DNA of 56,602 nucleotides, counting the filler, from an uncultured virus (IMG/VR IMGVR_UViG_2061766007_001428) (Duplodnaviria; Heunggongvirae; Uroviricota; Caudoviricetes). It is 16 parts of one record of this genome, joined end to end, with 100 filler letters (N's around TTAATTAATTAA, not from the genome) between each part and the next. Parts side by side here need not be neighbours in the genome. Positions count along the whole stretch, not along the records: positions 801 to 3,526 come from IMGVR_UViG_2061766007_001428; 15 more parts are not named here. One strand, written 5' to 3'. The position numbers were made by a program, and so were the translations under genes. The notes beneath the pieces were generated by a model, which worked only from the letters and a program-made list of their open reading frames with translations, had not been told where the DNA came from and made no database searches. Positions 700-45,238 of the stretch are shown here, piece by piece (the stretch's first letter is position 1; each line of letters starts with the position of its first letter).

Positions 700-800
700 C
701 NNNNNNNNNNNNNNNNNNNNNNNNNNNNNNNNNNNNNNNNNNNNTTAATTAATTAANNNNNNNNNNNNNNNNNNNNNNNNNNNNNNNNNNNNNNNNNNNN
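700..800. other. Artificial contig linker (N run + TTAATTAATTAA + N run); recurs about 15 times, e.g. near 3571, 5037, 15660, 19021, 31884, 48299, 54881
   Basis: The identical 12-mer with stops in all six frames is always embedded in N runs. Confidence 0.95.
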
Positions 801-1875: not shown

Positions 1876-3038
1876 GGAGAAACAGAAGAACAATTACTGT
1901 ATCGAATCGGTCAAATGAAAGACGAGTTAGGATATTCGTGGCAAGAAGTCGCAGATGTTATGAATAGTTTGTTAGACTATGATTATTCAGAATCAAAATA
2001 TAGAAAACAGTTTTGTGCTTTTAAGAAGATGTTAGAAGCCAATGACGATATATTTTCTAGTGATGATAGTTACAAACAGGAACTCGATAGTCTTAAACAC
2101 GATATAAAGTCGGAAAGACTTAAATTACAAACGCTCAATCTTGAAAGAAATAGACTTGACAGAGAAGAAGCACGACACGAACTATTTTATGAACAAATAG
2201 GTCAGTACATACAATCACGGGAAGTTGCAAAACTTGCCCCTCTATATGAACCTAGAAATAAAAACGTTAAGTATCTATTAGGTATTGCCGATATTCACGC
2301 AAACGCCAAATGGAGAACCAATACAAATGAATATTCTATGGATATTGTATCTCAAAGACTTATGAAACTTTTAGTTGAAGTGATACAATTTGTAAAAGAA
2401 AAAGGTTTGAACGAACTAAATATCGTTTTACTAGGTGATTTAATAGATGGTTGTCTTAGAATGTCTAATTTACAGACTATGGATTCTACGGTTGCTAAGT
2501 CTGTAGCAGATATTTCTGATATGCTTATTGGATTTTTAGAAACTTTAGTTGAAAGAACCCATATTCATATTAACCTGTTTGATGTGGTTTATAGTAATCA
2601 TTCGATGCCAAGATTTTTACAGAATTATGATATTCGTGAAGATTTAGGTTATACAATAAACAGATATATTAGAACAGGATTAAGAAATAATAAAAACATT
2701 GATATATATTCACCGCTTGATGGAGATATATGTTTAGACTTTAAGATATGGGATTTTGATATAATTGGTTTTCACGGTCATACTGAACGAAATCAAAGCG
2801 AAGCAATAAAGAACTTTACTATGGAACGCAGAAAGTTATATGATTATTCTGTATGTGGACACCTACATTGTAATCAAAAAACTGCGGTTTCGCTTGATGG
2901 ATTCCACGATGTNNNNNNNNNNNNNNNNNNNNNNNNNNNNNNNNNTCAATACATAAGATTTCTAAGGGTGCTTGTATGATTTGTGGCTTTGATGAAAAGT
3001 ACGGGTATGTTGAAAGTCACAAAATAATTTTAAATTAA
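1876..3038 (+). CDS. Calcineurin-like metallophosphoesterase with N-terminal coiled coil
   Basis: DIH, GDLIDG, SNH, HGH and GHLH metal-binding motifs. The frame extends upstream of 1915 into the gap, and the likely C-terminus (...ESHKIILN*) follows the gap in another frame. Confidence 0.8.
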
Positions 3039-3041
3039 CTA

Positions 3042-3070
3042 TTGACATTATGTTGTATCTGTGGTATAAT
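3042..3070 (+). promoter_or_regulatory. Consensus sigma-A promoter with extended -10
   Basis: TTGACA-17 nt-TATAAT with TG one base upstream of the -10 box. No sizeable + strand ORF follows. Confidence 0.9.
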
Positions 3071-3076
3071 ATATAT

Positions 3077-3527
3077 GTGATAGAGAAACAAAGGAATGTT
3101 TTAGTGAAGTAATGCCTCTTGCAAAGGTATGAAAACTATTAACCTCGTTTGTTTCGGAGGGGTTTGCAAGACCCCTTTAGGGCGATAAGCCCATCTAATG
3201 TCCTCTCAACTCTTTGCGGTGGTGCAAGAGTTATCCTAGGTAGAGAGGCTTTTAACCTAAAAGAAACTTGATTAAAGTTATTATGAGCGTTTCTCTCACT
3301 TGATAAAGAGTTCTTTTTACATAATAACGTATATAACGGAGAAGATAGTTTTAATATAGGTGCAATTCCTATACTCCGTATTTCTAATAATAAAATATTA
3401 CACAAGGGGGTATAAGAAGTGGTTAGATTTCTTGACGACTTTGGTATTGAAGCGACAAAGGGAGATACAATAATTATGCCCTTTGTGGTGGTCAATAATG
3501 ATAAATCAGTTTATCAAGTTCAAACAN
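3077..3527 (+). ncRNA. Putative structured non-coding RNA or RNA cluster (3' end lost at contig linker)
   Basis: Consecutive GC-richer helices after the promoter, an AGTA/GAA internal loop, a pseudoknot and a tRNA-like minihelix. Confidence 0.65.
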
Positions 3528-3627
3528 NNNNNNNNNNNNNNNNNNNNNNNNNNNNNNNNNNNNNNNNNNNTTAATTAATTAANNNNNNNNNNNNNNNNNN
3601 NNNNNNNNNNNNNNNNNNNNNNNNNNA

Positions 3628-4048
3628 GTTCATATTCAAACGGTTGATGATAAAAAAAGAGAATTAGATAATCTTGAAAGGACTTGGGGTAAACAAGATT
3701 GTGTAGAAGATTATGATTTCCTAGAAGAAACATTTGGTCGATACACAAAAGGTGTTGATTTTATAAATCCCCAACAGGAAGATTTATATAAAGACTTGTG
3801 CCGTGATAGATTATTATTGAGAAAGATAAATGATAATAGATATAGTGGTGAAGAAAGTTTAGACAAAGTTCAAAATAGAATTAGTAAGACTATGGCTATA
3901 CTTAAACTTGACCAATTTGAAGAAAATAAGCCTAAAACAATTAGTGAACAATTAATGTTTACTAAAATAGCCCAAATAGAACAAACAAAACCTGCTGATT
4001 TATATAAAGAGCCAAAGAAATATAGAGATTTTAATAAGATTAAGATGT
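3628..4048 (+). CDS. Phage protein of the SPbeta-like pre-terminase type, possible small terminase subunit (fragment)
   Basis: Open frame ...LERTWGKQDCVEDYDFLEE...IAQIEQTKPAD. Assignment rests mostly on context. Confidence 0.4.
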
Positions 4049-4059
4049 NNNNNNNNNNT

Positions 4060-4254
4060 GATGCCGAATGTATAGTTGAAAAGACTATTGATAATACCAC
4101 TTTAACATTAGTATTAGAACACGATGATACAAAAGGGCTTGAAGTTGGTGCGTATTATTATGATATTCAGATAACAAAAGCCGCAGATAATGAAGTTCAT
4201 ACTTTTATGAAAGGCATTATCAATATTACAAATGAAGTTTATGATAAAGATTGA
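4060..4254 (+). CDS. C-terminal fragment of a BppU-like small beta protein
   Basis: LEHDDTKGLEVGAYYYDIQI...VHTFMKGIINITNEV pattern. It is joined to the previous ORF only through an N gap. Confidence 0.5.
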   Translation, partial: DAECIVEKTIDNTTLTLVLEHDDTKGLEVGAYYYDIQITKAADNEVHTFMKGIINITNEVYDKD

Positions 4255-4257
4255 TTA

Positions 4258-4700
4258 TAAACACGGCTTTCCCATAGGCATCGCCCTCCTTTCTCGAAAG
4301 CGCATCGGATTGGAGATGTAAAACCCAATCAAGAGGTGATATTATTGGTTCACACCATAACAGAACCTTATAGACCTTTCGTGAATAGTCGGTGTGGGTG
4401 GCGACTTAAAATCCACCTACCACGGGCGGTAAGTGATGATAAGTAAACACCGTTCATACGGAGAGGGAAGTGCAATTCTTCCACCGTCCACTATCCCATC
4501 ACACCTAACACGTTTAGGATGTGAACCCGATTATCGTAAAGCGATTTTCGGTTTTTCTGCGTATAAAAATACGTTGCCTTGTTTACGGTACAAGGTTAAA
4601 AAACCGCACTGAAACGTAAGCGAAATAGATTAACCTTTTATCATATCATACATTCTGATATAATGTTATCGGAAAGGGGTATGTGAGTTGTAGCAATAGG
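4258..4700 (+). ncRNA. Second block of structured non-coding elements (pseudoknots, tRNA-like element, hairpins)
   Basis: About 450 nt with no sizeable ORF, higher GC than the flanks, and many helices identifiable by eye. Confidence 0.6.
4424..4490 (+). tRNA. Non-canonical tRNA-like element (CAT in a shrunken anticodon arm)
   Basis: 7-bp acceptor GGGCGGT/ACCGTCC + A, T-arm GGAAG-TGCAATT-CTTCC, weak D stem GTG/CAC. The anticodon loop is not a canonical 7 nt and there is no encoded CCA. Confidence 0.5.
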
Positions 4701-4720
4701 ATAACCGAAAGGAAAAGACT

Positions 4721-4900
4721 ATGACAGACAAAGAAGTAGGTTACATCGAGTGTCCATATTGCCATAATATCTTTCCGAGTGAAGTGGAATACAAGGAAAG
4801 TCCATCGAGGAATAAAATAGTATCAGATTTACTTGACGATATGGATAAGCGAAACAAAAAACCACATTCACGGGTTTTCGTAAGGGTTAAGTCTGACTAA
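4721..4900 (+). CDS. Small hypothetical protein (59 aa) with CPYC motif
   Basis: AAAGGAAA RBS, then MTDKEVGYIECPYCHNIF...VKSD*. Confidence 0.55.
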   Translation: MTDKEVGYIECPYCHNIFPSEVEYKESPSRNKIVSDLLDDMDKRNKKPHSRVFVRVKSD

Positions 4901-5092
4901 ATCTTATTTTTAGAGTGAATGAAACGTAAGCGAAGTAGAATATATGAATATTAAAGATTTACACCTTAATACATATAAATACCATATAAAAGNNNNNNNN
5001 NNNNNNNNNNNNNNNNNNNNNNNNNNNNNNNNNNNNTTAATTAATTAANNNNNNNNNNNNNNNNNNNNNNNNNNNNNNNNNNNNNNNNNNNN

Positions 5093-6613
5093 GATATTTT
5101 AATAACGTCATTTACACTTAATCAGAGTAATAACGTTATTGAGTCGAAAATAGACAAAGAACTTTCAAACACCAAGAGTGGAATTAGTCCTGTTCTAAGG
5201 CAACTTAGAAAAGATGGTTATATGGAAATTAAGAAAGACCAAAATACGGGTGCTAAATATGTTGAATTTGGTAATGGTTCTAAAATATTTGCAGTTACGT
5301 GTGGAGATTCAGCAAGAGGTAAGAGAAGTCAGATAGTAATTACTGATGAGTGTGTACTTATCAAGAAAAAAGATTACGAAGAAATAATTGAGCCTACATT
5401 AACACAACGTAGTTTTGTAGGAAAACCGTCTGATTATATTGAAGAGCCTAAACAGATTTTCCTAAGTTCTGCTAAAACACGTACAAATTGGATGTGGCGA
5501 CACTTAAAGAATTGTGTTGTTGAACATTATAAAAATAAAAGAATAAAATATGGATTCTTTGCAGTTGATGTTTTTACTGCGGTTGCTTCAACTATTCAAA
5601 CAAAGAATCAGTATCTACAAAGAAAGAAAACCGTTGATGATATGTCTTTCCAACAAGAATATCTAAATATTTTCTTGGGTAACACAGAAAACAGTTTATT
5701 CAAATTAGAAGATTTTGAAAGAAATCAAATATTGGAAAAACCTTTCTATCCAAGAACTTTAGATGAAATATTAGATAAAAAAGAAAATAGTTATATCTTT
5801 TCTGATAATTGGGTAAGAATAGTAGCATCGGATATAGCATTAGCAACGGGTAATGAAAACGATAATAGCGTATGGATATTTATGGCTATTAATACCGAAA
5901 CAGGTGAAAGGCGTGTTGAATATATTACTGCTCGACACGGATTAAATACTGTTGAACAAGTGTTGTTAATGAAACGGTTTTTCTATGAATACAAAGCGTC
6001 ATATTGTATTCAAGATACGAAAGGCGTTGGTCAAGGTGTTTACGACTTATTGACAGTTGAAACAGAAGATACTGAATATGGTAAAATATATCCTGCTTGG
6101 ACAGTATGTAGAGATAGAGAATTACAAATATCATCAGACAATGTTATGAATGATAAGATACAAAGGACTATTTCTACAGAAGCAGAAGAAGTTTTAATTC
6201 CATATGCAGGAACTTCTGAATTAAATAGTCAAATGCACTTACTTTTGCGTAAAGTTTTAAGGGATAATAATATTTCATTCCTTAAAGATGAAAGTGAAAT
6301 GAGAGCAATTATAGAAGATACCGACCCGACATTTATGACAAAATCTGCCGAAGAAAAAGCGTTGGTAATGTTGCCTTATTTGGAAACAAAATATCTAATT
6401 AATGAAGCAATATCACTTGAAATTAAATTTATGGAAAGTGGTAATATTAAATTGCAAGAAGCGTCAAGATTAGATGTAAAGGATAGATATATGACATTGG
6501 CTATGGCTAATTTTCTTGCAGATAAAATATATAATAAATACTCTAAGGACACCGATACCGAACTTAATATGGATGATTGGAAATGGTTAAGCGGTGATTA
6601 TAAGGGATTTTAA
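5093..6613 (+). CDS. terL: Terminase large subunit (5' end missing)
   Basis: ARGKRSQIVITDE Walker B region, LSSA coupling motif, FQQEY, nuclease DIA...ND and terminal KDRY. Confidence 0.9.
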   Translation, partial: DILITSFTLNQSNNVIESKIDKELSNTKSGISPVLRQLRKDGYMEIKKDQNTGAKYVEFGNGSKIFAVTCGDSARGKRSQIVITDECVLIKKKDYEEIIEPTLTQRSFVGKPSDYIEEPKQIFLSSAKTRTNWMWRHLKNCVVEHYKNKRIKYGFFAVDVFTAVASTIQTKNQYLQRKKTVDDMSFQQEYLNIFLGNTENSLFKLEDFERNQILEKPFYPRTLDEILDKKENSYIFSDNWVRIVASDIALATGNENDNSVWIFMAINTETGERRVEYITARHGLNTVEQVLLMKRFFYEYKASYCIQDTKGVGQGVYDLLTVETEDTEYGKIYPAWTVCRDRELQISSDNVMNDKIQRTISTEAEEVLIPYAGTSELNSQMHLLLRKVLRDNNISFLKDESEMRAIIEDTDPTFMTKSAEEKALVMLPYLETKYLINEAISLEIKFMESGNIKLQEASRLDVKDRYMTLAMANFLADKIYNKYSKDTDTELNMDDWKWLSGDYKGF

Positions 6614-33118: not shown

Positions 33119-35280
33119 CTACTTATGTTTAACTCTCATTTCAACTTCTTGTTGTTTACCTAGGTTAAATGCACTTTTATAATCTCCCGTTAAATAGCCC
33201 GTTACACGCCTTAATCGTCTTATATTATGGCTANNNNNNNNNNNNNNNNNNNNNNNNNNNNNNNNNNNNNNNNNNATTACACATATCATTAGGAACATTA
33301 ATAGCAAAATATGGTATATCTTTATCCATAGCATAGTTTACTATTGTTTCAAGTGCTTGTAGATTATTTTTAACAGACCCATCTAATTCAACATAAGTAA
33401 TACAACCTGCCGAACTATATCCTGTAAGTTCTGATTCTATATTTATCTTTTCGATAGGTGTCATTTGTTTCCATACGGGTACGTGAATTGAGTTTGTAAN
33501 NNNNNNNNNNNNNNNNNNNNNNNNNNNNNNNNNNNNNNNNNNNNNNNNNNNNNNNNNNNNNNNNAGCAGGAGTATAATATACACCAAAATTAAGATAATA
33601 TGTATAATCAGTAACTTCGCCATTAATTACTAACTCTTTATGATGTAATTCTTTCTTAAATTCGGCACATCTATCTTTGAATAATTGTTCTATTCTCTTT
33701 GCTAATTTCATTCCTTTAGGTTCTGTATGGTCACAACCTATAAGGATTTGTAATGTTTCGGCAAGTCCTAATTGTCCTACGGCAAGTGTACCGTGTTTAA
33801 GTGCAGATATAATACCTTCTTCGGGTACATATCCTGCCATTGTATTATTTTCATACATAAATCTTGCCGCTTCGGGAGATTGAGAACATATCCAATCAAA
33901 ACGCTCAATAAGCATATCTTTAGCATCGTGGATTGCTTCATCTAAAAGTTGCATAAAGAAATCTATTGTATCGTTTTCTAAATCCCCACAAGGTTTATCA
34001 TCATAATAATGAGCCGCCTCCATAGCAAGAGTAGGCATTATAATAGTTACAGGACAAATATTTCCTCTACCATCTTTAAGTTGTCCAAAACCATTTGCAT
34101 CCCAACCNNNNNNNNNNGTTGAAAAATAGGTCTTAGGGTCGTTTATATCATAATTTGCATTACCACTCCAATCAACATTTGCATAGTTAGGATATAACCT
34201 TTGTGCAGTTGATTTAAGTGCTAATTGAAATAAATCATAATTAGGGTCACCCTTATGGCGATTTACGCCTTTCATACATTGAAAAATCCCACAAGGGAAA
34301 ATACTTGTCTTATGAAATTTTCCAACACCTTTAATACTACCCTCAATTAAGGCTCTTGTTACCATACGACCTTCGGGTAATGTACAAGTACCATAGTTAA
34401 TACTTGTAAAGGGTAACTGATTTCCCGAACGAGATTGAAGAGTATTTAAGTTGTGATACATACCTTCAACGGCTTGTTTCAATTCTTTCTCGGTTTTCTT
34501 TAAAGCATATTTNNNNNNNNNNNNNNNNNNNNNNNNNNNNNNNNNNNNNNNNNNNNNNNNNNNNNNNNNNNNNNNNNNNNNNNNNNNNNNNNNNNNNNNN
34601 NNNNNNNNNNNNNNNNNNNNNNNNNNNNNNNNNNNNNNNNNNNNGTTGTAAACTTTGTAATTGAAATATTACCGCAACTAACTGAAATGCAGTATTAACT
34701 GAATTAGCAGGTCTTACATCTGTTTGTCTTGTGTTAAATCCGTTGGCAAGTAAATCATCAAATGGAATACTAAGACAGTTATGACTACCAATGGCGTAAC
34801 TATCAAGGTCGTGTATATAAATAATATTATTTAGATGGTTCTCTTTGGATTTACGACTCATACAGTTATTTAGTGCATATTNNNNNNNNNNNNNNNNNNN
34901 NNNNNNNNNNNNNNNNNNNNNNNNNNNNNNNNNNNNNNNNNNNNNNNNNNNNNNNNNGTTTTCTACATTAGTAGCCTTTAATCGTCTTGTAATTGTTCTG
35001 TTAAGTTTACTGCGCTTATTTCTTTCTAATGTTCTATTATTTCTATACAGAATATAACTCTTTGCAACATCTTTACGGTTAGTTGCCATTAGTTTCTTTT
35101 CAATTATATCCTGTATATCTTCTACATTAAACTCTTTATTTTCGCTTTCTTTCTCAATACTTGTAGCGATTGATTCTATTTTCTNNNNNNNNNNNNNNNN
35201 NNNNNNNNNNNNNNAAGTGCCTTTACAATTTTGTCCTTATTGAATTGAACTATTCTCCCGTCACGCTTAGTAACATTCAT
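33119..35280 (-). CDS. nrdD: Anaerobic (class III) ribonucleotide reductase with ATP cone (split by gaps)
   Basis: KRDGRIV.F ATP cone, HDLD, RSGNQLPFTSINYG, and RRVTGYL glycyl-radical motif. Confidence 0.95.
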
Positions 35281-39354: not shown

Positions 39355-40650
39355 TTAATCCTCCTTAAAACTTTTAATAATGCTAAAGTTTTTTAATACT
39401 TCTTCCTTTTCTTCCGATTTAGTCCATTCGCCATCTACTTGTCTGCGCTTAAATTGCGTGTTAAACACAACTTTAATTATATCNNNNNNNNNNNNNNNNN
39501 GCGTAAGAATATTTGTTAATCTTTCTTTGATAATATTCTCCGTATTTAGGACTATAAAGTGTAGCAAATTTATTTCCATATTTGTTAGTTTCTACGTTTC
39601 CTACGATAAGAATATTCTCATCAATACTTTTATCGACATAATCTGTATGACCTAAAATACCCATTTCGTTTGACATACGTTCAATATTANNNNNNNNNNG
39701 TATTCGTTACGTTTATTTAAAGGTATATTATCCCTATCCATTACTTTATCAAAATTATCATTAAGATAATCTACTAATATTTGATATTTTTCTTCATCTG
39801 TTTTATTAGGATAAATAGTAGGCATTTTAATATCAGTATTAATATCTATGTTTTCAATTTCATCAAAAATAAGAGTATTATCAATAGCCTTAATTATTTG
39901 TTCTTCTGAAAGTATACCTTGTGTAATAAATCTTTCAACCATAGTATCATAATCGGGATAATCTAATACAAAACTATCTTCATCATCATATGTAATACCC
40001 TTACCTTTAAGTAATTCAAGTCTTTCAATAGATTGTTCGGGATAAATATAATGTGAATCATTAGCGGCTATAAGTTCAAGTCCATATCGTACTTGACACC
40101 AAATAGCCTTTTCGTTAATTTCTTTTTGAATATCAAAGTTATGATTTTGCACTTCAAGAAAAACATTTTTACCAAAATGTTCTACAAGTGGTAAAAATAT
40201 TTCATTATAACTATCACTATCTTTTAATAAACCTGCAACACAAGCAGTTGTAATATATATTTCATCTTTTCCAATTTTAAGTAAATCATCTAAAAACAAA
40301 CGTGGTTTATAATAATACCCTTCTGTGTTTGCATGAGAACTAGCAAGGTTTAATTTCTTCCTTGCTACATTAGTTTTCGGTATTAAAATTATATGATAAT
40401 TACGTGGGTCTTTTTCTAACGGATTAGGTACAATATAACCTTCTATTCCAAATTTAACATTTAATCCATTAGCGTCTGCAAATTGTTTTGCTTCAAATAT
40501 ATCTCCACCACTACCGTGATTGGTTGTCCATACATTAGTTTCACCCAATTCCAAAGCACGATTTACATAATCAATAAAATGTGCGTTTGTATCGGGTGTA
40601 AATATATTGCTTATATGGTCATGCTTATGATAATTATTATATCTTTTCAT
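39355..40650 (-). CDS. dnaE: Second DNA polymerase III alpha-like gene (PHP domain plus probable C-terminal piece; middle absent at a short gap)
   Basis: HKHD, TNHG, GIEGY, YYYKPR, LEVQNH and ANDSHY PHP motifs. Confidence 0.75.
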
Positions 40651-40672
40651 TGTTTTCTATAAATTCCTTAAT

Positions 40673-41086
40673 TTATATATAAAAATTTCTTATTATATTA
40701 TTCCATTCTTCTTTAGGTATTCCACCACAATCATATTTTTCTTGTAAATTATATAAACATTGTTTTAAGTATCTAGTATTATGCCAATCTTTAAATATTT
40801 TATTTTCAACAACTCTGATATCAATTTCAAAGTCTATATAGTCTTGTAATTTTTTAATTGTTGTGGTGCTAACTGTATAATTACGATTACATATCATTTC
40901 ATATATAACCATATTACAGTATATTCTAAATTCAGATAAGTCATAATCCATAATTTTATTTACAAGAATATGATTTGGAGTTCCCTTTTCATATATAGAT
41001 TTAGATATTGCAACACATTCACGTAACTGTGCAACGAGCCTTTGTTTATCAAGATATGGTATAAGTTTGTAATGCCAAAGACGCAT
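40673..41086 (-). CDS. Pyrimidine-dimer DNA glycosylase (T4 endonuclease V family)
   Basis: MRLWH..LIP.L..Q.LVAQ.RE N-terminal signature. Confidence 0.75.
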   Translation of the reverse strand: MRLWHYKLIPYLDKQRLVAQLRECVAISKSIYEKGTPNHILVNKIMDYDLSEFRIYCNMVIYEMICNRNYTVSTTTIKKLQDYIDFEIDIRVVENKIFKDWHNTRYLKQCLYNLQEKYDCGGIPKEEWNNIIRNFYI

Positions 41087-41101
41087 ATGTTCTCCTTTTA
41101 T

Positions 41102-41866
41102 TTATTCAACATTTTCAAAATGATAATTATGAAAATGTTTTAATTCTCCTCTACATACTTTTGAAATAGAACTGTTGTCTATTCCCATTTGTCGCCCACA
41201 TTCAGAATAAGACCTATATATAATTCCTGTTTCAATACATCTAACCTTTATATTAGTTGGATGATTTCTATATTTTTCTCTTGTTTCTTCTGATATAGTT
41301 TTACCCCACATAGGATTTTTATTCCCTACTTTTTGTTCACTTAATTTCTTTTTAGTTTCTTCTGACCTCTTTTTCCCTGTTAGTTTATTAATTATTTTTT
41401 CTCTTGTTTCTTTATTTTCCCACATTTTTTTAGTTCTTTCAGATTGTTCTTTTTTATATTCTTCACGATGTAAATGATTTAATATTTTATTTTTATATGT
41501 ATCTGTTAACCAAAGTTCTTTCATTTTTTTACTTCGATTTTCTTTCATTTCTTTAGTGTATATTCTACAATCTCCTCCTAATAAATCATTATATCCATAT
41601 TTATTATTTGTTGTATTATATTTTTTTATATATTCTATTTCTAATTTATTTGCTTCTTCAAGACTTAAATTATCTTTTATTATATCGTGATTAAAGTTTT
41701 CCCATCCGTATTTTTTAATTGCACTATAAAAATGTGGACTACCTTCATAACCTAAACCATTTTTCCATCTTTTTTCGGGTGGATGTTGGCAAGTAATTCC
41801 TATATAAATTTTATTATTTATTTTATTAGTGTGTTTATATAATATCCAAGTTTTTATGATAATCAC
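41102..41866 (-). CDS. GIY-YIG homing endonuclease with NUMOD3/NUMOD1-like DNA-binding modules
   Basis: ILYKHTN...YIGIT, GYN, GKKRSEETKKKLSE, NPMWGK and ISKVCRG. Confidence 0.9.
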   Translation of the reverse strand: MIIIKTWILYKHTNKINNKIYIGITCQHPPEKRWKNGLGYEGSPHFYSAIKKYGWENFNHDIIKDNLSLEEANKLEIEYIKKYNTTNNKYGYNDLLGGDCRIYTKEMKENRSKKMKELWLTDTYKNKILNHLHREEYKKEQSERTKKMWENKETREKIINKLTGKKRSEETKKKLSEQKVGNKNPMWGKTISEETREKYRNHPTNIKVRCIETGIIYRSYSECGRQMGIDNSSISKVCRGELKHFHNYHFENVE

Positions 41867-41889
41867 CTGCTTTCAAAATTGATGATTAT

Positions 41890-41918
41890 ATTATATCATA
41901 TCAATTATTATTTGTCAA
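41890..41918 (-). promoter_or_regulatory. Consensus sigma-A promoter
   Basis: TTGACA-17-TATAAT with TG extension. Confidence 0.85.
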
Positions 41919-41922
41919 GGTA

Positions 41923-42150
41923 TTATTTTAATAATCCTTTATATTCTCCTAATAATTCTATTGCTCTAATCATAGCCATTTGATTAGCAAATCTTTCATA
42001 GTTATCTTCTGTACCATCATGATTATATGAATAGTCGGGTAAATAACCTCTTTTTATCCAACCTAATCTTTCTATTACGTCACTAATTCCCATATTTCTA
42101 GCACGTTCATAATCTTCTTCTTCATATTCTGTTACTGTATATGTTCTCAT
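41923..42150 (-). CDS. Hypothetical protein
   Basis: AAGGAG RBS before MRTYTV. Confidence 0.55.
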   Translation of the reverse strand: MRTYTVTEYEEEDYERARNMGISDVIERLGWIKRGYLPDYSYNHDGTEDNYERFANQMAMIRAIELLGEYKGLLK

Positions 42151-42803
42151 TTGTTTTCTCCTTATCTTCTTTCTCACATATCCCACTAATATACATAGTA
42201 TCTTTAAAATATATTTTAACTTCTTCCCCTATTTGCCATTCGGGAACTTTTATTCTTATAATTGCATCTACATAATTATTCATATTATACCTCATACACT
42301 AGCCCTAATTTGAATAACCTTTTTCCAATAAGGTTCATACTCTTTTAATTTATTTTCTATCATTTCATCAAACTCATAATTNNNNNNNNNNNNNNNNNNN
42401 NNNNNTTCTATACTATTGACAGTTGTATATTTTCTATCCATTACACACTAGCCCTTATCTGAATAACTTTTCTCCAATACGGTTCATACTCTTTTAATTT
42501 ATTTTCTATCATTTCATCAAACTCATAATTNNNNNNNNNNATCATCTACATCTTGTTCACAATCAAGTATTTCACCTATACCAAATCTAATTTCGGGTGC
42601 ATACCANNNNNNNNNNATCAAGTTTCTCATATTCTTCATCATCTTCATATTTGTTATACATATCTTCTTCAAACTCATCACGGTCAATATAAGTTTTCTC
42701 TTCGTCTATATCTTGTTCACAATCAAGTATTTCACCTATACCAAATCTTATTTCGGGTGCATACCACCAACCATAATCATAATCAGCAACAANNNNNNNN
42801 NNA

Positions 42804-45238
42804 ATTATCACCACAATTATTTCCTATACCTTTAATTGAACCTATACCTTTATATATTATCTTATTTTCGGCATCGCATCCATATTCACTTGTTGAAAAT
42901 CTAAATATTGGAGATTTAATCTTAATTCCTTTATTCTGCGCAAGAATTGTTCCGTTAGATATATCTTCATCATTCTTGGCACAATTAAGNNNNNNNNNNN
43001 NNNNNNNNNNNNNNNNNNNNNNNNNNNNNNNNNNNNNNNACGTAACCCAACATAGCATATGATTCAGCGTGATTAAAGTTAAATGAATATCCACTTGCAT
43101 CTTCAATAACTTTAAGGAATTGTTTTGCTTCTTCCATCGCTATTTCTTTAGGCTTATCTGATTTATTACAATACCCTTCAAGGATTTGTGGTAATGCCTT
43201 ATCTATTTTGTCTTTTTGCTTTTTACCTATCGCTCTACGGATATTATCGGCNNNNNNNNNNNNNNNNNNNNNNNNNNNNNNNNNNNNNNNNNNNNNNNNN
43301 NNNNNNNNNNNNNNATCAGATAATAAATCGTCTATGATTTTACTTGGGTTCTTATTCCATTGTCTATTATAAACCTGCTCACGATAACTTTCACCACTAG
43401 GTCTAAGACAAGCAGAACATAAACAAACATCATCTACACTCATTGGGTGCATTTTCTTAATAGATTGTTTTGCAAAGTCTGACTCAAATTGGAATATAGC
43501 CGTACTATCTTCGGTTATATCTTCAAATACATCCTTATCTTCCCAATCTACTTCATATGCTTTCGGGAAATGAGTGCCTATAAGTTTACACGTTTTATCT
43601 ATAACACCTACTGATTTAAGTCCAAGAATATCAAACTTAATTAGTCCTAATTCGTGACACTCATCCATATCAATAGGCAAAATCTGTTGATTATCAGCAC
43701 CATAAAACATACCGTAATTATCAGCAAGTGTTACAGGACTAACTATCAGACCTGCAGGATGTTGGGATTGTGATACTACACATCCACATAACCCATCGTA
43801 ATAATAAAACAAATCTGAATATCTCTTTTTTGTTGCTTCGGGATTAGCCTCGTATTCCTTTTTAATCTCTTTAATTCTATCAAGTGTATATTCAGTTTCG
43901 TTATTTGTTTTAACCCTAAAAGCCTTACCGATTGTATCAATAACGGCTTTATCTGCTAATGTTCCTACGGCAAGGATATATGAAGTATTTGGTACTCCAA
44001 AACGATTTATGATATAATCATAAACCTTTGGTCTATCATCTTCGTACCAATCCGTATCAATATCTCCTGCTTCTACTCTATATTCGTTAGCAAAACGAGA
44101 AAATACCGTATGCCACTTAATAGGGTCAATATCTGTTATATCTGATATGTACGCAACTGTNNNNNNNNNNNNNNNNNNNNNNNNNNNNNNNNNNNNNNNN
44201 NTATATTATTGTCTTTAGCCCACGACATAATCTCCGACATTAAGAGCATAAAACCAATCATATTGATTTTCTTAAATACTCTCATTTCTTCGTTGATGTT
44301 TTCCCAATATTTAGGATTATCTTCGATTTCGCCACGAGCGACTTTTTCATTATATTTTCTTTTTAAGGTTTCCCATAAAACCTTTTCATCATCTTCTCCG
44401 TAGAGAATAGGATATTTGTCTGACCTGTCAAANNNNNNNNNNNNNNNNNNNNNNTTTCAATGGCAGTTAAAACAACATCCATAGGTAATGAATCTTGTAT
44501 TCTAAATGCTTCTACAAGTTCATCATAACTCTTATATGTTAAATCACATTCATTTTCTTCGTCACCCCATACACCATCGGTTTTACCGTATTGTAAAATT
44601 GTTCTACATTCAGCCTTATAATTATCAAGTGAGTGCGTATCAGTAGCGGATATAAGGGGTTTATTATAAGAGATAGACATATCGTAAAGGAAACGGTTAT
44701 AATCTATCTGCTCTTGCATATTATGATATTGTATTTCGTAGTAATCGTATTTTTCTAAAAGTGAAATATATTTTAATCTGCGNNNNNNNNNNNNNNNNNN
44801 NNNNNNNNNNTACTCTTATGGAACTTATTTAATGGCGATTGAACACAGGCAGATATTTTAATTATATTATCACTAATTGCTAAGAACTCATCAAAACTTA
44901 ATCTTGGCTTGTAATAAAAATGGTCTTTTTGCGTAGAAAGAAAGAACAGTTTATTAAGTTCCTTAAACCCTTCTTTGTTTTTAGCAATTAGAATAGTGTG
45001 GTAATTATCTCTGATACTTTCATCAAAAGTTTCAGTAAGATATACCTCTATCCCGTGTAGGTATTTAATGCCCTTTTCTTTACAATAGAGCCACTTTGAA
45101 ACCCAATTATATATGNNNNNNNNNNNNNNNNNNNNNNNNNNNNNNNNNNNCACAACGGTCTATATATGACTTGTAATCAGTACAGGAATCTAATAATGAA
45201 TCCTGTGTATGTAAATGATAACAAACATAATTAGACAT
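42804..45238 (-). CDS. dnaE: DNA polymerase III alpha subunit (C family), 3' part missing
   Basis: HLHT..S.LDS, ATDTH, catalytic DIDTD, SQHPAG, KFDILGL, FQFES, YSFN.NHA..YA. Confidence 0.95.

What the first reader, a model, noticed from the sequence alone, without database searches (positions are those of the whole stretch)
3336..3380. 45-nt minimal tRNA mimic lacking D and anticodon arms
Seen: ACGGAG/CTCCGT (6 bp) stacks on TATAGG-TGCAATT-CCTATA (6 bp, 7-nt loop). That gives 12 bp from the end to the T-loop, as in tRNA (7+5), bridged by a 13-nt strand and followed by an unpaired A. It has the same loop as the element at 4424. Established: RNase P, RNase Z and the CCA-adding enzyme recognise the acceptor-T domain. 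Inference: a processing punctuation mark, or a decoy for tRNA-targeting defence enzymes.
Basis: partly seen in the sequence, partly recalled or inferred. Interest (0 to 1): 0.7.

Follow-up and report, generated by a model that had tools for sequence, protein, structure and literature searches.

The report
Shrunken phage tRNA-Met gene remnant
The 45-base hairpin is what is left of a phage tRNA-Met gene that lost its two middle arms but kept the 12-base-pair end that tRNA-cutting enzymes recognise, so it may still mark a cutting site in the RNA, which is a modest curiosity and not a new kind of element.

Summary
The sequence and pairings at 3336-3380 are as described, and ViennaRNA predicts that fold. 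The geometry alone is at chance frequency in the window (143 sites observed, 148 expected).

Homologues give it meaning. Two gap-free metagenome contigs of closely related rumen phages carry a relative of the element at the same spot, between a conserved promoter-driven GC-rich RNA and a small Ig-like gene:
- L030 has a real tRNA-Met(CAU) (ARAGORN; Rfam tRNA 39.2 bits).
- L026 has a degenerate form with no D arm (27.3 bits, below the 29-bit threshold).
- The window has only the acceptor stem and T arm.

All three keep 11-12 stacked pairs. Two pairs changed on both sides and none is broken. The window and L026 share a U55-to-G change in the T loop.

So the element is a tRNA-Met gene reduced by internal deletion. 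My best reading (about 0.45) is that the acceptor/T minihelix is retained as an RNase P/Z cutting or 5'-end signal in the operon transcript, like plant mitochondrial t-elements. A decaying pseudogene is nearly as likely (about 0.38). Processing was not tested, and the decoy idea has no support. The element at 4424 is a separate, well-conserved tRNA-like domain. Interest is moderate.

The parts
3336..3341 (+). 5' strand of the acceptor-like stem (ACGGAG)
   Evidence: It is homologous to GCGGAG of the L030 tRNA-Met and ACGGAGA of L026.
3342..3354 (+). 13-nt unpaired linker that replaces the D arm, anticodon arm and variable region
   Evidence: The linker is 34 nt in L026 and 42 nt (D arm, anticodon arm, variable region) in L030.
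3355..3373 (+). T arm: 6-bp stem TATAGG/CCTATA with the 7-nt loop TGCAATT (3361-3367)
   Evidence: L026 has GTAGG-TGCAACT-CCTAC and L030 has GTAGG-TTCAATT-CCTAC. The G-C to A-T change is compensatory.
3374..3379 (+). 3' strand of the acceptor-like stem (CTCCGT), stacked directly on the T stem
   Evidence: The outermost pair is A-T here and in L026 and G-C in L030, a compensatory change.
3380..3380 (+). Unpaired A at the discriminator position; no encoded CCA follows (ATTTCT)
   Evidence: L026 has the same A.
3042..3070 (+). Sigma-70-type promoter TTGACA-17-TATAAT with TG extension that would drive the transcript carrying the element
   Evidence: 12 of 12 matches. It is conserved in L026 and L030. 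No terminator-like site lies between it and 3526.
3080..3335 (+). GC-rich conserved non-coding RNA 'A' directly upstream of the element
   Evidence: GC reaches 0.51 against about 0.30. It is 94% identical to L026 and 87% to L030. Of 67 predicted pairs, 4 show compensatory change. A 209-nt metatranscriptome contig covers 3094-3300. There is no Rfam match.
3419..3526 (+). Start of a small Ig-like gene (phrog_1084 type). Its GTG start lies 39 nt after the element and its 3' part is at 4059-4254 of this scrambled scaffold.
   Evidence: The gene is intact in L026 (2482-2823) and L030 (2670-3014).
4424..4490 (+). Second, separate tRNA-like domain inside RNA 'B' (4262-4556), with the same loop TGCAATT (4471-4477), a 7-bp acceptor stem with G3.U70, and A73
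   Evidence: All 24 pairs are kept in 4 of 4 sequences, and 4 pairs show compensatory change.

Best explanation
The element is a phage tRNA-Met(CAU) gene reduced by internal deletion to its acceptor stem and T arm.

Shown:
- At the same place in two related rumen phages there is a full tRNA-Met (L030) and a half-decayed form without a D arm (L026).
- All three keep an 11-12 bp coaxial acceptor/T helix on the + strand.
- All three sit in one operon: strong promoter, structured RNA A, element, Ig-like gene.

Inferred:
- The helix is still under selection, because it is the part of a tRNA that RNase P measures and cuts at its 5' side (before A3336), and that RNase Z and the CCA-adding enzyme recognise at the 3' side (after A3380).
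- The element would then work as a cutting mark. It would separate the upstream RNA from the mRNA of the Ig-like gene, or leave that mRNA with a flush structured 5' end.
- This is the role of a tRNA or a 't-element' in plant mitochondrial transcripts.

The element cannot decode, because it has no anticodon. Confidence in the origin is about 0.9. Confidence in the retained processing role is about 0.45, and that is the figure given.
For: Synteny and homology:
- Window 2982-3335 aligns to L026 at 94% and to L030 at 87%.
- The alignment resumes at the T arm and runs into the Ig-like gene.

Gradient of tRNA-likeness:
- L030:2560-2635 is tRNA-Met(cat) by ARAGORN and scores 39.2 bits on the Rfam tRNA model, E 2e-6.
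- The L030 tRNA resembles annotated phage tRNA-Met genes; 20 records matched.
- L026:2378-2443 scores 27.3 bits, below the 29-bit threshold.
- ARAGORN does not call L026 under default, -ps80 or -mt settings.
- The window element has no ARAGORN call and no Rfam match at E up to 10.

Helix kept:
- Stacked pairs are 6+6 in the window, 7+5 in L026 and 6+5 in L030.
- Two pairs changed on both sides and none is broken. The outer acceptor pair is A-T or G-C. One T-stem pair is A-T or G-C, and that change lies on the window's own lineage, after the D arm was already lost.
- The chance that 2 random substitutions in 11 pairs leave all pairs Watson-Crick is 0.016. For 4 substitutions it is 0.0008.
- The minihelix or cloverleaf is the MFE of all 3 sequences in a 100-130 nt context.

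One transcript: a 12/12 promoter and no terminator-like site before the gene.

Precedent: t-elements with an acceptor stem and T arm direct RNase P/Z cuts and receive non-encoded C/CA (PMC1920247, passages read). M. smegmatis YrlA, with a 7-bp acceptor-like stem, is cut by RNase P RNA and receives CCA (PMC4201824, passages read).
Against: - There are only 3 sequences, and L026 and the window are close relatives, so the covariation rests on two events.
- Template-switch mutation within hairpins can create compensatory changes without selection.
- No RNA data cover the element. The only RNA contig nearby stops at 3300, so no cut at 3336 or 3380 is shown.
- In L026 a 312-nt insert with a 61-codon ORF separates RNA A from the element. 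A role in forming the 3' end of RNA A therefore cannot be general.
- The T loop has G in place of U55, there is no D-loop partner, and no CCA is encoded. How well bacterial RNase P or RNase Z would accept such a substrate was not tested.
- The 12-bp geometry is common by chance in this AT-rich window.
- In one folding context (2980-3420) a competing structure wins.
Confidence: 0.45

Rival explanations
1. The element is a decaying tRNA pseudogene with no present function. The tRNA-Met gene died, internal deletions removed the middle, and the two outer helices are still intact only because the event is recent and they are short.
For: There is a stepwise loss of score: 39.2 bits, then 27.3 bits, then no match. 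Large indels separate near-identical phages exactly here. A related 75.6-kb phage record has no tRNA at all, with 0 matches, so the tRNA is dispensable in this group. Another relative (L025) carries a degenerate tRNA between TerS and an HNH gene, which shows that tRNA wrecks are common near these genes. tRNA gene fragments are a known, widespread by-product of mobile DNA (PMC9897764, passages read).
Against: Two both-sided changes and no broken pair in 11-12 pairs is unlikely under neutral decay (0.016 for one event, 0.0008 for both). The two decayed forms each restored 12 pairs in a different way, 6+6 and 7+5. The flanks and the spacing to the start codon are conserved.
Confidence: 0.38
2. 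The element is a translational switch. Its 3' strand (about 3370-3377, UAUACUCC) can pair with the Shine-Dalgarno region of the Ig-like gene (3407-3414, GGGGGUAU). The minihelix would then be the 'on' conformer and the alternative pairing would hide the ribosome site.
For: In the 2980-3420 context the MFE pairs 3366-3379 with 3405-3418, and the minihelix pairs drop to about 0.2 probability.
Against: In 3 of 4 contexts, including those that start at the predicted transcription start, the minihelix is the MFE with probability 0.76-0.97. By eye, the complementarity to the Shine-Dalgarno region is weaker in L026 and L030 (sequences). No ligand or partner is suggested.
Confidence: 0.07
3. The element is a decoy or sponge for a host enzyme that acts on the acceptor end of tRNAs, for example toxins that modify or trim the 3' end.
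For: This rests only on the retained acceptor/T domain and on the U55-to-G change shared with the separate tRNA-like domain at 4424.
Against: No CCA is encoded. There is one copy in the 56.6-kb window. No defence-related neighbour was found. The tRNA-cleaving defences I recall target anticodon loops, which are absent here. Expression level is unknown.
Confidence: 0.05
4. The element is a chance hairpin, an intrinsic terminator, or an attP-type tRNA fragment.
For: The geometry is at chance frequency and the stems are AT-rich.
Against: Homology to a tRNA at the same locus rules out pure chance. No terminator-like site was found in 2946-3526 and no U tract follows. Both acceptor strands are present, the T loop is non-canonical, and none of the 54 ORFs scanned was an integrase; small ORFs were not scanned. 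An attP copy of a host tRNA 3' end therefore does not fit.
Confidence: 0.03

Closest known systems
t-elements of plant mitochondria (tRNA-like elements that direct RNase P and RNase Z cuts at mRNA ends; PMC1920247, passages read)
   Same: Both are a non-decoding, tRNA-derived structure with an acceptor stem and T arm, embedded in a longer transcript next to an mRNA. The proposed mode of action is the same.
   Different: t-elements keep the canonical GGTTCRANYCC T-arm motif and mostly a cloverleaf-like shape. Their ends were mapped and non-encoded C/CA was seen. Here the motif has one mismatch (GGTGCAATTCC), both middle arms are gone, the host is a phage of bacteria, and no ends are mapped.
Canonical phage tRNA-Met genes (Rfam RF00005)
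   Same: The element shares ancestry with the L030 tRNA-Met at the same locus, and it has the same acceptor and T-arm strands.
   Different: It has no D arm, no anticodon arm and no anticodon, and it has G at position 55. ARAGORN and Rfam do not detect it.
tRNA gene fragments and pseudogenes left by mobile DNA (PMC9897764, passages read)
   Same: [quoted passage not shown]
   Different: Those fragments are one-sided: the 3' or 5' part is duplicated at integration sites. Here both acceptor strands are kept and the middle is deleted, so a closed 12-bp helix remains.
Acceptor/T-arm minihelix model substrates and mascRNA-type tRNA-like 3'-end signals
   Same: A 12-bp acceptor/T helix is the minimal shape recognised by RNase P and the CCA-adding enzyme. 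A tRNA-like element downstream of a non-coding RNA can create that RNA's 3' end.
   Different: Those cases are laboratory constructs or eukaryotic nuclear RNAs. Nothing comparable was found in print for phage operons in my searches, which cover open-access text only.
tRNA-like domains of bacterial and phage Y RNAs (YrlA; PMC4201824, passages read)
   Same: Both are a tRNA-like module without a decoding function. One member with a 7-bp acceptor-like stem is cut by RNase P and receives CCA.
   Different: YrlA keeps D- and T-arm mimics and a Ro60-binding stem, and it lies next to rsr. None of these features is present here, and no Rfam family, YrlA or other, matched this region at E up to 10.

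Membership tests
tRNA (Rfam RF00005 / ARAGORN) | Cloverleaf with D arm, anticodon arm and a 7-nt anticodon loop | tested here: not met
   ARAGORN found 0 genes in the window and nothing at relaxed (-ps80) or mitochondrial (-mt) settings. Rfam gave no tRNA match at E up to 10 in 2900-5300. Only 13 nt lie between the stems.
tRNA (Rfam RF00005 / ARAGORN) | Acceptor stem stacked on the T stem, about 12 bp, with a 7-nt T loop | tested here: met
   6+6 Watson-Crick pairs and a 7-nt loop.
tRNA (Rfam RF00005 / ARAGORN) | T-loop consensus UUCRANN (T54, psi55, C56, R57, A58) | tested here: not met
   The loop is UGCAAUU. U54, C56, A57 and A58 fit, but position 55 is G. L030 has UUCAAUU.
tRNA (Rfam RF00005 / ARAGORN) | Common descent with a tRNA gene | tested here: met
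   A tRNA-Met sits at the syntenic position in L030 and an intermediate form in L026.
t-element-like processing signal | tRNA-like acceptor/T-arm structure inside a longer transcript | tested here: met
   A promoter lies at 3042-3070, no terminator-like site precedes the gene, and the fold is predicted in context.
t-element-like processing signal | Conserved T-arm motif GGTTCRANYCC (criterion used in PMC1920247) | tested here: not met
   The window has GGTGCAATTCC, a mismatch at the fourth base. L030 has GGTTCAATTCC, which fits.
t-element-like processing signal | RNA ends that coincide with the borders of the structure; non-encoded C/CA at its 3' end | tested here: inconclusive
   Of the four runs laid, one gave no contig at all and the others gave none over 3306-3385. 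Only contigs were available, not raw reads.
t-element-like processing signal | Cleavage by RNase P and RNase Z | not testable with these tools
   This needs an in vitro assay or in vivo end mapping.
Intrinsic terminator | GC-rich hairpin followed by a U tract | tested here: not met
   0 terminator-like sites in 2946-3526. The tail is AUUUCUAAUAAU.
attP-type tRNA fragment | One-sided copy of a host tRNA 3' part next to an integrase gene | tested here: not met
   Both acceptor strands are present. None of the 54 ORFs scanned against PHROGs was an integrase; small ORFs were not scanned.

The most novel reading that the evidence does not exclude
This phage lineage keeps a small class of anticodon-less tRNA-like domains that share the unusual T loop UGCAAUU. 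The conserved one at 4424 carries the alanine identity set (G3.U70, A73; recalled) and could be charged after CCA addition. The 45-nt element would be a former tRNA-Met being recruited into the same class, through U55-to-G and restoration of 12 bp after losing its core. The two would serve one partner, or pair with each other through the self-complementary UGCA/AAUU loop letters.
Probability: 0.1. Interest if true: 0.75.

Novelty: new variant of a known kind. Interest (0 to 1): 0.4.

Why it matters
If the helix is really maintained, this is a natural series showing a tRNA gene turning into a bare RNase P/Z recognition signal in a bacterial virus: cloverleaf, then a form without the D arm, then a minihelix. 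That would extend the tRNA 'punctuation' principle, known from mitochondria and from a few nuclear non-coding RNAs, to phage operons. It would also give a naturally occurring minimal substrate for testing what bacterial tRNA-processing enzymes need.

If it is only a pseudogene, it is an ordinary by-product of phage genome turnover. It would still be a useful warning that acceptor/T hairpins near phage packaging genes can be tRNA wrecks.

Tried and rejected
- Known RNA families: Rfam gave 0 matches at gathering scores in the whole window. At E up to 10 it gave only two chance-level matches in 2900-5300, neither on the element.
- Public phage records: GenBank phages had no near match for 2900-5300. 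Distant searches for 3080-3420 gave only a 26-nt chance match and for 4262-4560 gave nothing.
- IMG/VR: no relative of the exonuclease, of RNA A's core 24-mer or of the Ig-like protein. The comparative set therefore stayed at 3 sequences for the element and 4 for the 4424 domain.
- Whole genome: none is held for the window. Of 4 handles asked for, only the L002 record could be searched.
- RNA evidence: one search found 20 rows that hold the stretch, from 12 studies of ruminant gut samples. Four runs were laid. No contig covered 3306-3385, and the DNA run X10 gave no contig at all. This shows nothing about processing either way.
- Model of the 4424 domain: it does not match the 45-nt element. 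It hit 4 of 36 sources, all being the domain itself, plus two E>5 noise hits. The two elements share only the loop.
- Split TerL or intron idea: I first suspected that the GC-rich regions were introns in a split terminase gene. The apparent split is a scaffold artefact.
- 'GUGC' T loop: I recalled that cell-wall tRNA-Gly species have such a T loop. The two papers I searched did not contain it, so I make no use of it.
- Earlier findings of this scan: nothing for this place or these sequences.

Full report
**What is there**

ACGGAG (3336-3341) pairs with CTCCGT (3374-3379). TATAGG (3355-3360) pairs with CCTATA (3368-3373) around the loop TGCAATT. The two helices abut on the 3' side, a 13-nt strand bridges them on the 5' side, and an unpaired A follows.

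The isolated 45-mer folds to this structure:
- MFE -11.6 kcal/mol
- 67% of the ensemble
- z = -2.55
- 2 of 200 shuffles fold as well

The structure is also the MFE in 3 of 4 larger contexts, with pair probabilities of 0.76-0.97 when the RNA starts near the predicted promoter. In the 2980-3420 context a competing structure wins. The 9-mer GTGCAATTC occurs twice in the window, here and at 4470, against 0.25 expected.

**Is it more than chance?**

By geometry alone it is not. I used a descriptor for a 7-nt loop closed by stems that stack to at least 12 pairs, with a linker of up to 60 nt. It finds 143 sites in the window against a mean of 147.7 in 30 dinucleotide shuffles. With a T-loop-like loop it finds 2 sites against 1.5. 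The case rests on homologues.

**Context**

The window is a phage of ruminant gut samples. It has a TerL distantly like those of Thomasclavelia, phiCD211 and SPbeta-type phages; the best match is 34% identical and 76 records matched. It also has portal, tape-measure, replication and nucleotide-metabolism genes.

The window is a scaffold. Pieces are joined by N44-TTAATTAATTAA-N44 at 701-800, 3527-3626 and 4993-5092, and their order is wrong. A small-terminase fragment (3627-4048) sits inside a small Ig-like gene (3419-3526 plus 4059-4254). The gap-free contigs L026 (94-97% identical in this region) and L030 (87-91%) give the true order:

1. exonuclease gene
2. promoter
3. GC-rich RNA 'A'
4. the element
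5. Ig-like gene
6. GC-rich RNA 'B', which holds the 4424 domain
7. a variable stretch
8. terminator
9. TerS
10. TerL

The stretch 2946-3526 that holds the element is continuous. The promoter at 3042-3070 matches the sigma-70 consensus 12 of 12 with a TG extension. It is conserved in both relatives, and no terminator-like site lies between it and the gene. The 118-codon ORF on the opposite strand (3139-3495) has no family match and would be broken by the L026 insert, so I take it to be spurious.

**The decisive comparison**

All three phages carry a related element between the same flanks. The upstream flank ends CATAATAACGTATA. The downstream flank is the AT-rich leader and AAGGGGG ribosome site of the Ig-like gene.

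| Phage | What sits there | ARAGORN | Rfam tRNA model | Stacked pairs | T loop |
|---|---|---|---|---|---|
| L030 | 76-nt tRNA-Met(CAU); resembles annotated phage tRNA-Met genes, 20 records | called | 39.2 bits, E 2e-6 | 6+5 = 11, plus a terminal C.U mismatch | TTCAATT |
| L026 | 7-bp acceptor stem, 34-nt middle with one hairpin and no D arm, 5-bp T arm | not called at any setting | 27.3 bits, under the 29-bit threshold | 7+5 = 12 | TGCAACT |
| Window | acceptor stem, 13-nt middle, T arm | not called | no match at E up to 10 | 6+6 = 12 | TGCAATT |

In L026 the element is preceded by a 312-nt insert with a 61-codon ORF. The three form a reduction series of one gene.

**Signs of constraint**

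Two pairs differ on both sides and none is broken:
- The outermost acceptor pair is A-T in the window and L026, and G-C in L030.
- One T-stem pair is A-T in the window, and G-C in L026 and L030.

The second change happened on the window's own lineage. By then the D arm was already gone, because the window and L026 share the loss, the U55-to-G change and an extra base at the T/acceptor junction.

That extra base pairs as a sixth T-stem pair in the window and as a seventh acceptor pair in L026. Both decayed forms therefore reach 12 stacked pairs by different routes.

With random substitutions, the chance that 2 hits in 11 pairs leave all pairs Watson-Crick is 0.016. For 4 hits it is 0.0008. This is suggestive and falls short of proof. 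There are only three sequences and two events, and hairpin template-switching can mimic compensation.

**How it most likely works**

Shown: the element is tRNA-derived, it lies on the + strand, it sits in a promoter-driven operon transcript, and the helix is kept.

Inferred: the retained acceptor/T helix is the part of a tRNA that RNase P measures and that RNase Z and the CCA-adding enzyme accept. The element would then still be cut out of the transcript. That would separate upstream RNA from the Ig-like gene's mRNA, or give that mRNA a flush structured 5' end.

The closest described system is the plant mitochondrial t-element (PMC1920247, passages read). Another precedent is M. smegmatis YrlA, which is cut by RNase P RNA and receives CCA (PMC4201824, passages read).

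Several things count against this reading:
- No RNA run covered 3306-3385. A 209-nt metatranscriptome contig covers only 3094-3300.
- The L026 insert shows that the element is not tied to the 3' end of RNA A.
- The T loop departs from consensus and there is no encoded CCA.

I put the processing role at about 0.45 and a functionless pseudogene at about 0.38. A related 75.6-kb phage record has no tRNA at all. Another relative, L025, has a degenerate tRNA between TerS and an HNH gene. Among more distant relatives, 5 of 24 loci and 1 of 12 carry a tRNA-Thr upstream of TerS. tRNAs and their wrecks are therefore common in this neighbourhood.

**Other readings**

- Shine-Dalgarno switch. In one folding context the element's 3' strand pairs with the Shine-Dalgarno region. 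This alternative loses in the other three contexts and looks weaker in the relatives.
- Decoy. This reading has no specific support.
- Terminator, attP fragment and chance hairpin. All three are contradicted.

**The element at 4424**

It is a different thing and is better supported as a functional RNA. It is a 66-nt tRNA-like domain inside RNA B, made of:
- a 7-bp acceptor stem, GGGCGGU/ACCGUCC
- an invariant 19-nt linker
- a 4-bp mini hairpin
- a T arm with the same UGCAAUU loop

All 24 pairs are kept in 4 of 4 sequences, and 4 pairs show compensatory change. A covariance model of the domain finds only these four and does not match the 45-nt element. Its third pair is G.U and the next base after the stem is A, which I recall as the alanine identity set of tRNA-Ala and tmRNA. 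That reading is a lead and was not tested.

**Novelty and score**

tRNA pseudogenes, tRNA-like processing signals and minihelix substrates are all known. A natural phage series from cloverleaf to bare minihelix, with the helix kept, was not found in my literature searches, which cover open-access text only. I rate it a new variant of a known kind, with interest 0.4.

Noticed in passing
window 4262-4556, core 4424-4490: Conserved structured RNA 'B' with a 66-nt tRNA-like domain that lacks D and anticodon arms. It has acceptor GGGCGGU/ACCGUCC (G3.U70) followed by A, an invariant stop-rich linker AAGUGAUGAUAAGUAAACA, and the T loop UGCAAUU. All 24 pairs are kept in 4 of 4 sequences, 4 of them with compensatory change. 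It has no Rfam family. The alanine-identity reading is recalled and untested.
   Followed up: partly
window 3042-3335: A perfect sigma-70 promoter is followed by a GC-rich RNA 'A' of about 250 nt, 87-94% conserved in two relatives, with some covariation and no Rfam match. A 209-nt metatranscriptome contig lies wholly within 3094-3300.
   Followed up: partly
window 701-800, 3527-3626, 4993-5092; also 4049-4058: The window is a scaffold joined by N44-TTAATTAATTAA-N44 linkers and its pieces are out of order. A TerS fragment (3627-4048) interrupts the Ig-like gene, and the TerS ends and the TerL N-terminus are missing. Apparent 'split genes' here should not be read as biology.
   Followed up: yes
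L002 about 4130-4360 (TerL gene): The TerL reading frame of this relative is interrupted after GDSARGK by about 230 nt containing stop codons, then resumes. This looks intron-like. ARAGORN called no tRNA in L002, and no Rfam scan of that stretch was run.
   Followed up: no
L025 1117-1239: Between TerS and an HNH endonuclease gene lies a degenerate tRNA with a canonical T arm (TGGGG-TTCAAAT-CCCCA) and an imperfect acceptor stem. ARAGORN calls it only at a lowered threshold.
   Followed up: partly
window 4611-4630 and 4919-4938: Two 20-nt direct repeats (TGAAACGTAAGCGAA[A/G]TAGA) flank a 59-codon zinc-ribbon-like ORF (4721-4900). This stretch is variable among the relatives.
   Followed up: no
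window 3361-3367 and 4471-4477: The shared loop UGCAAUU contains two self-complementary tetramers (UGCA, AAUU), so loop-loop pairing between the two elements, or between copies, is possible. This was not tested.
   Followed up: no
window 39655-45153 (- strand) and 33418-35089: The DNA polymerase is in several pieces with a GIY-YIG homing endonuclease between them, and NrdD and RecJ-like genes are also in two pieces each. Some of this may be scaffold artefact and not introns or inteins.
   Followed up: no
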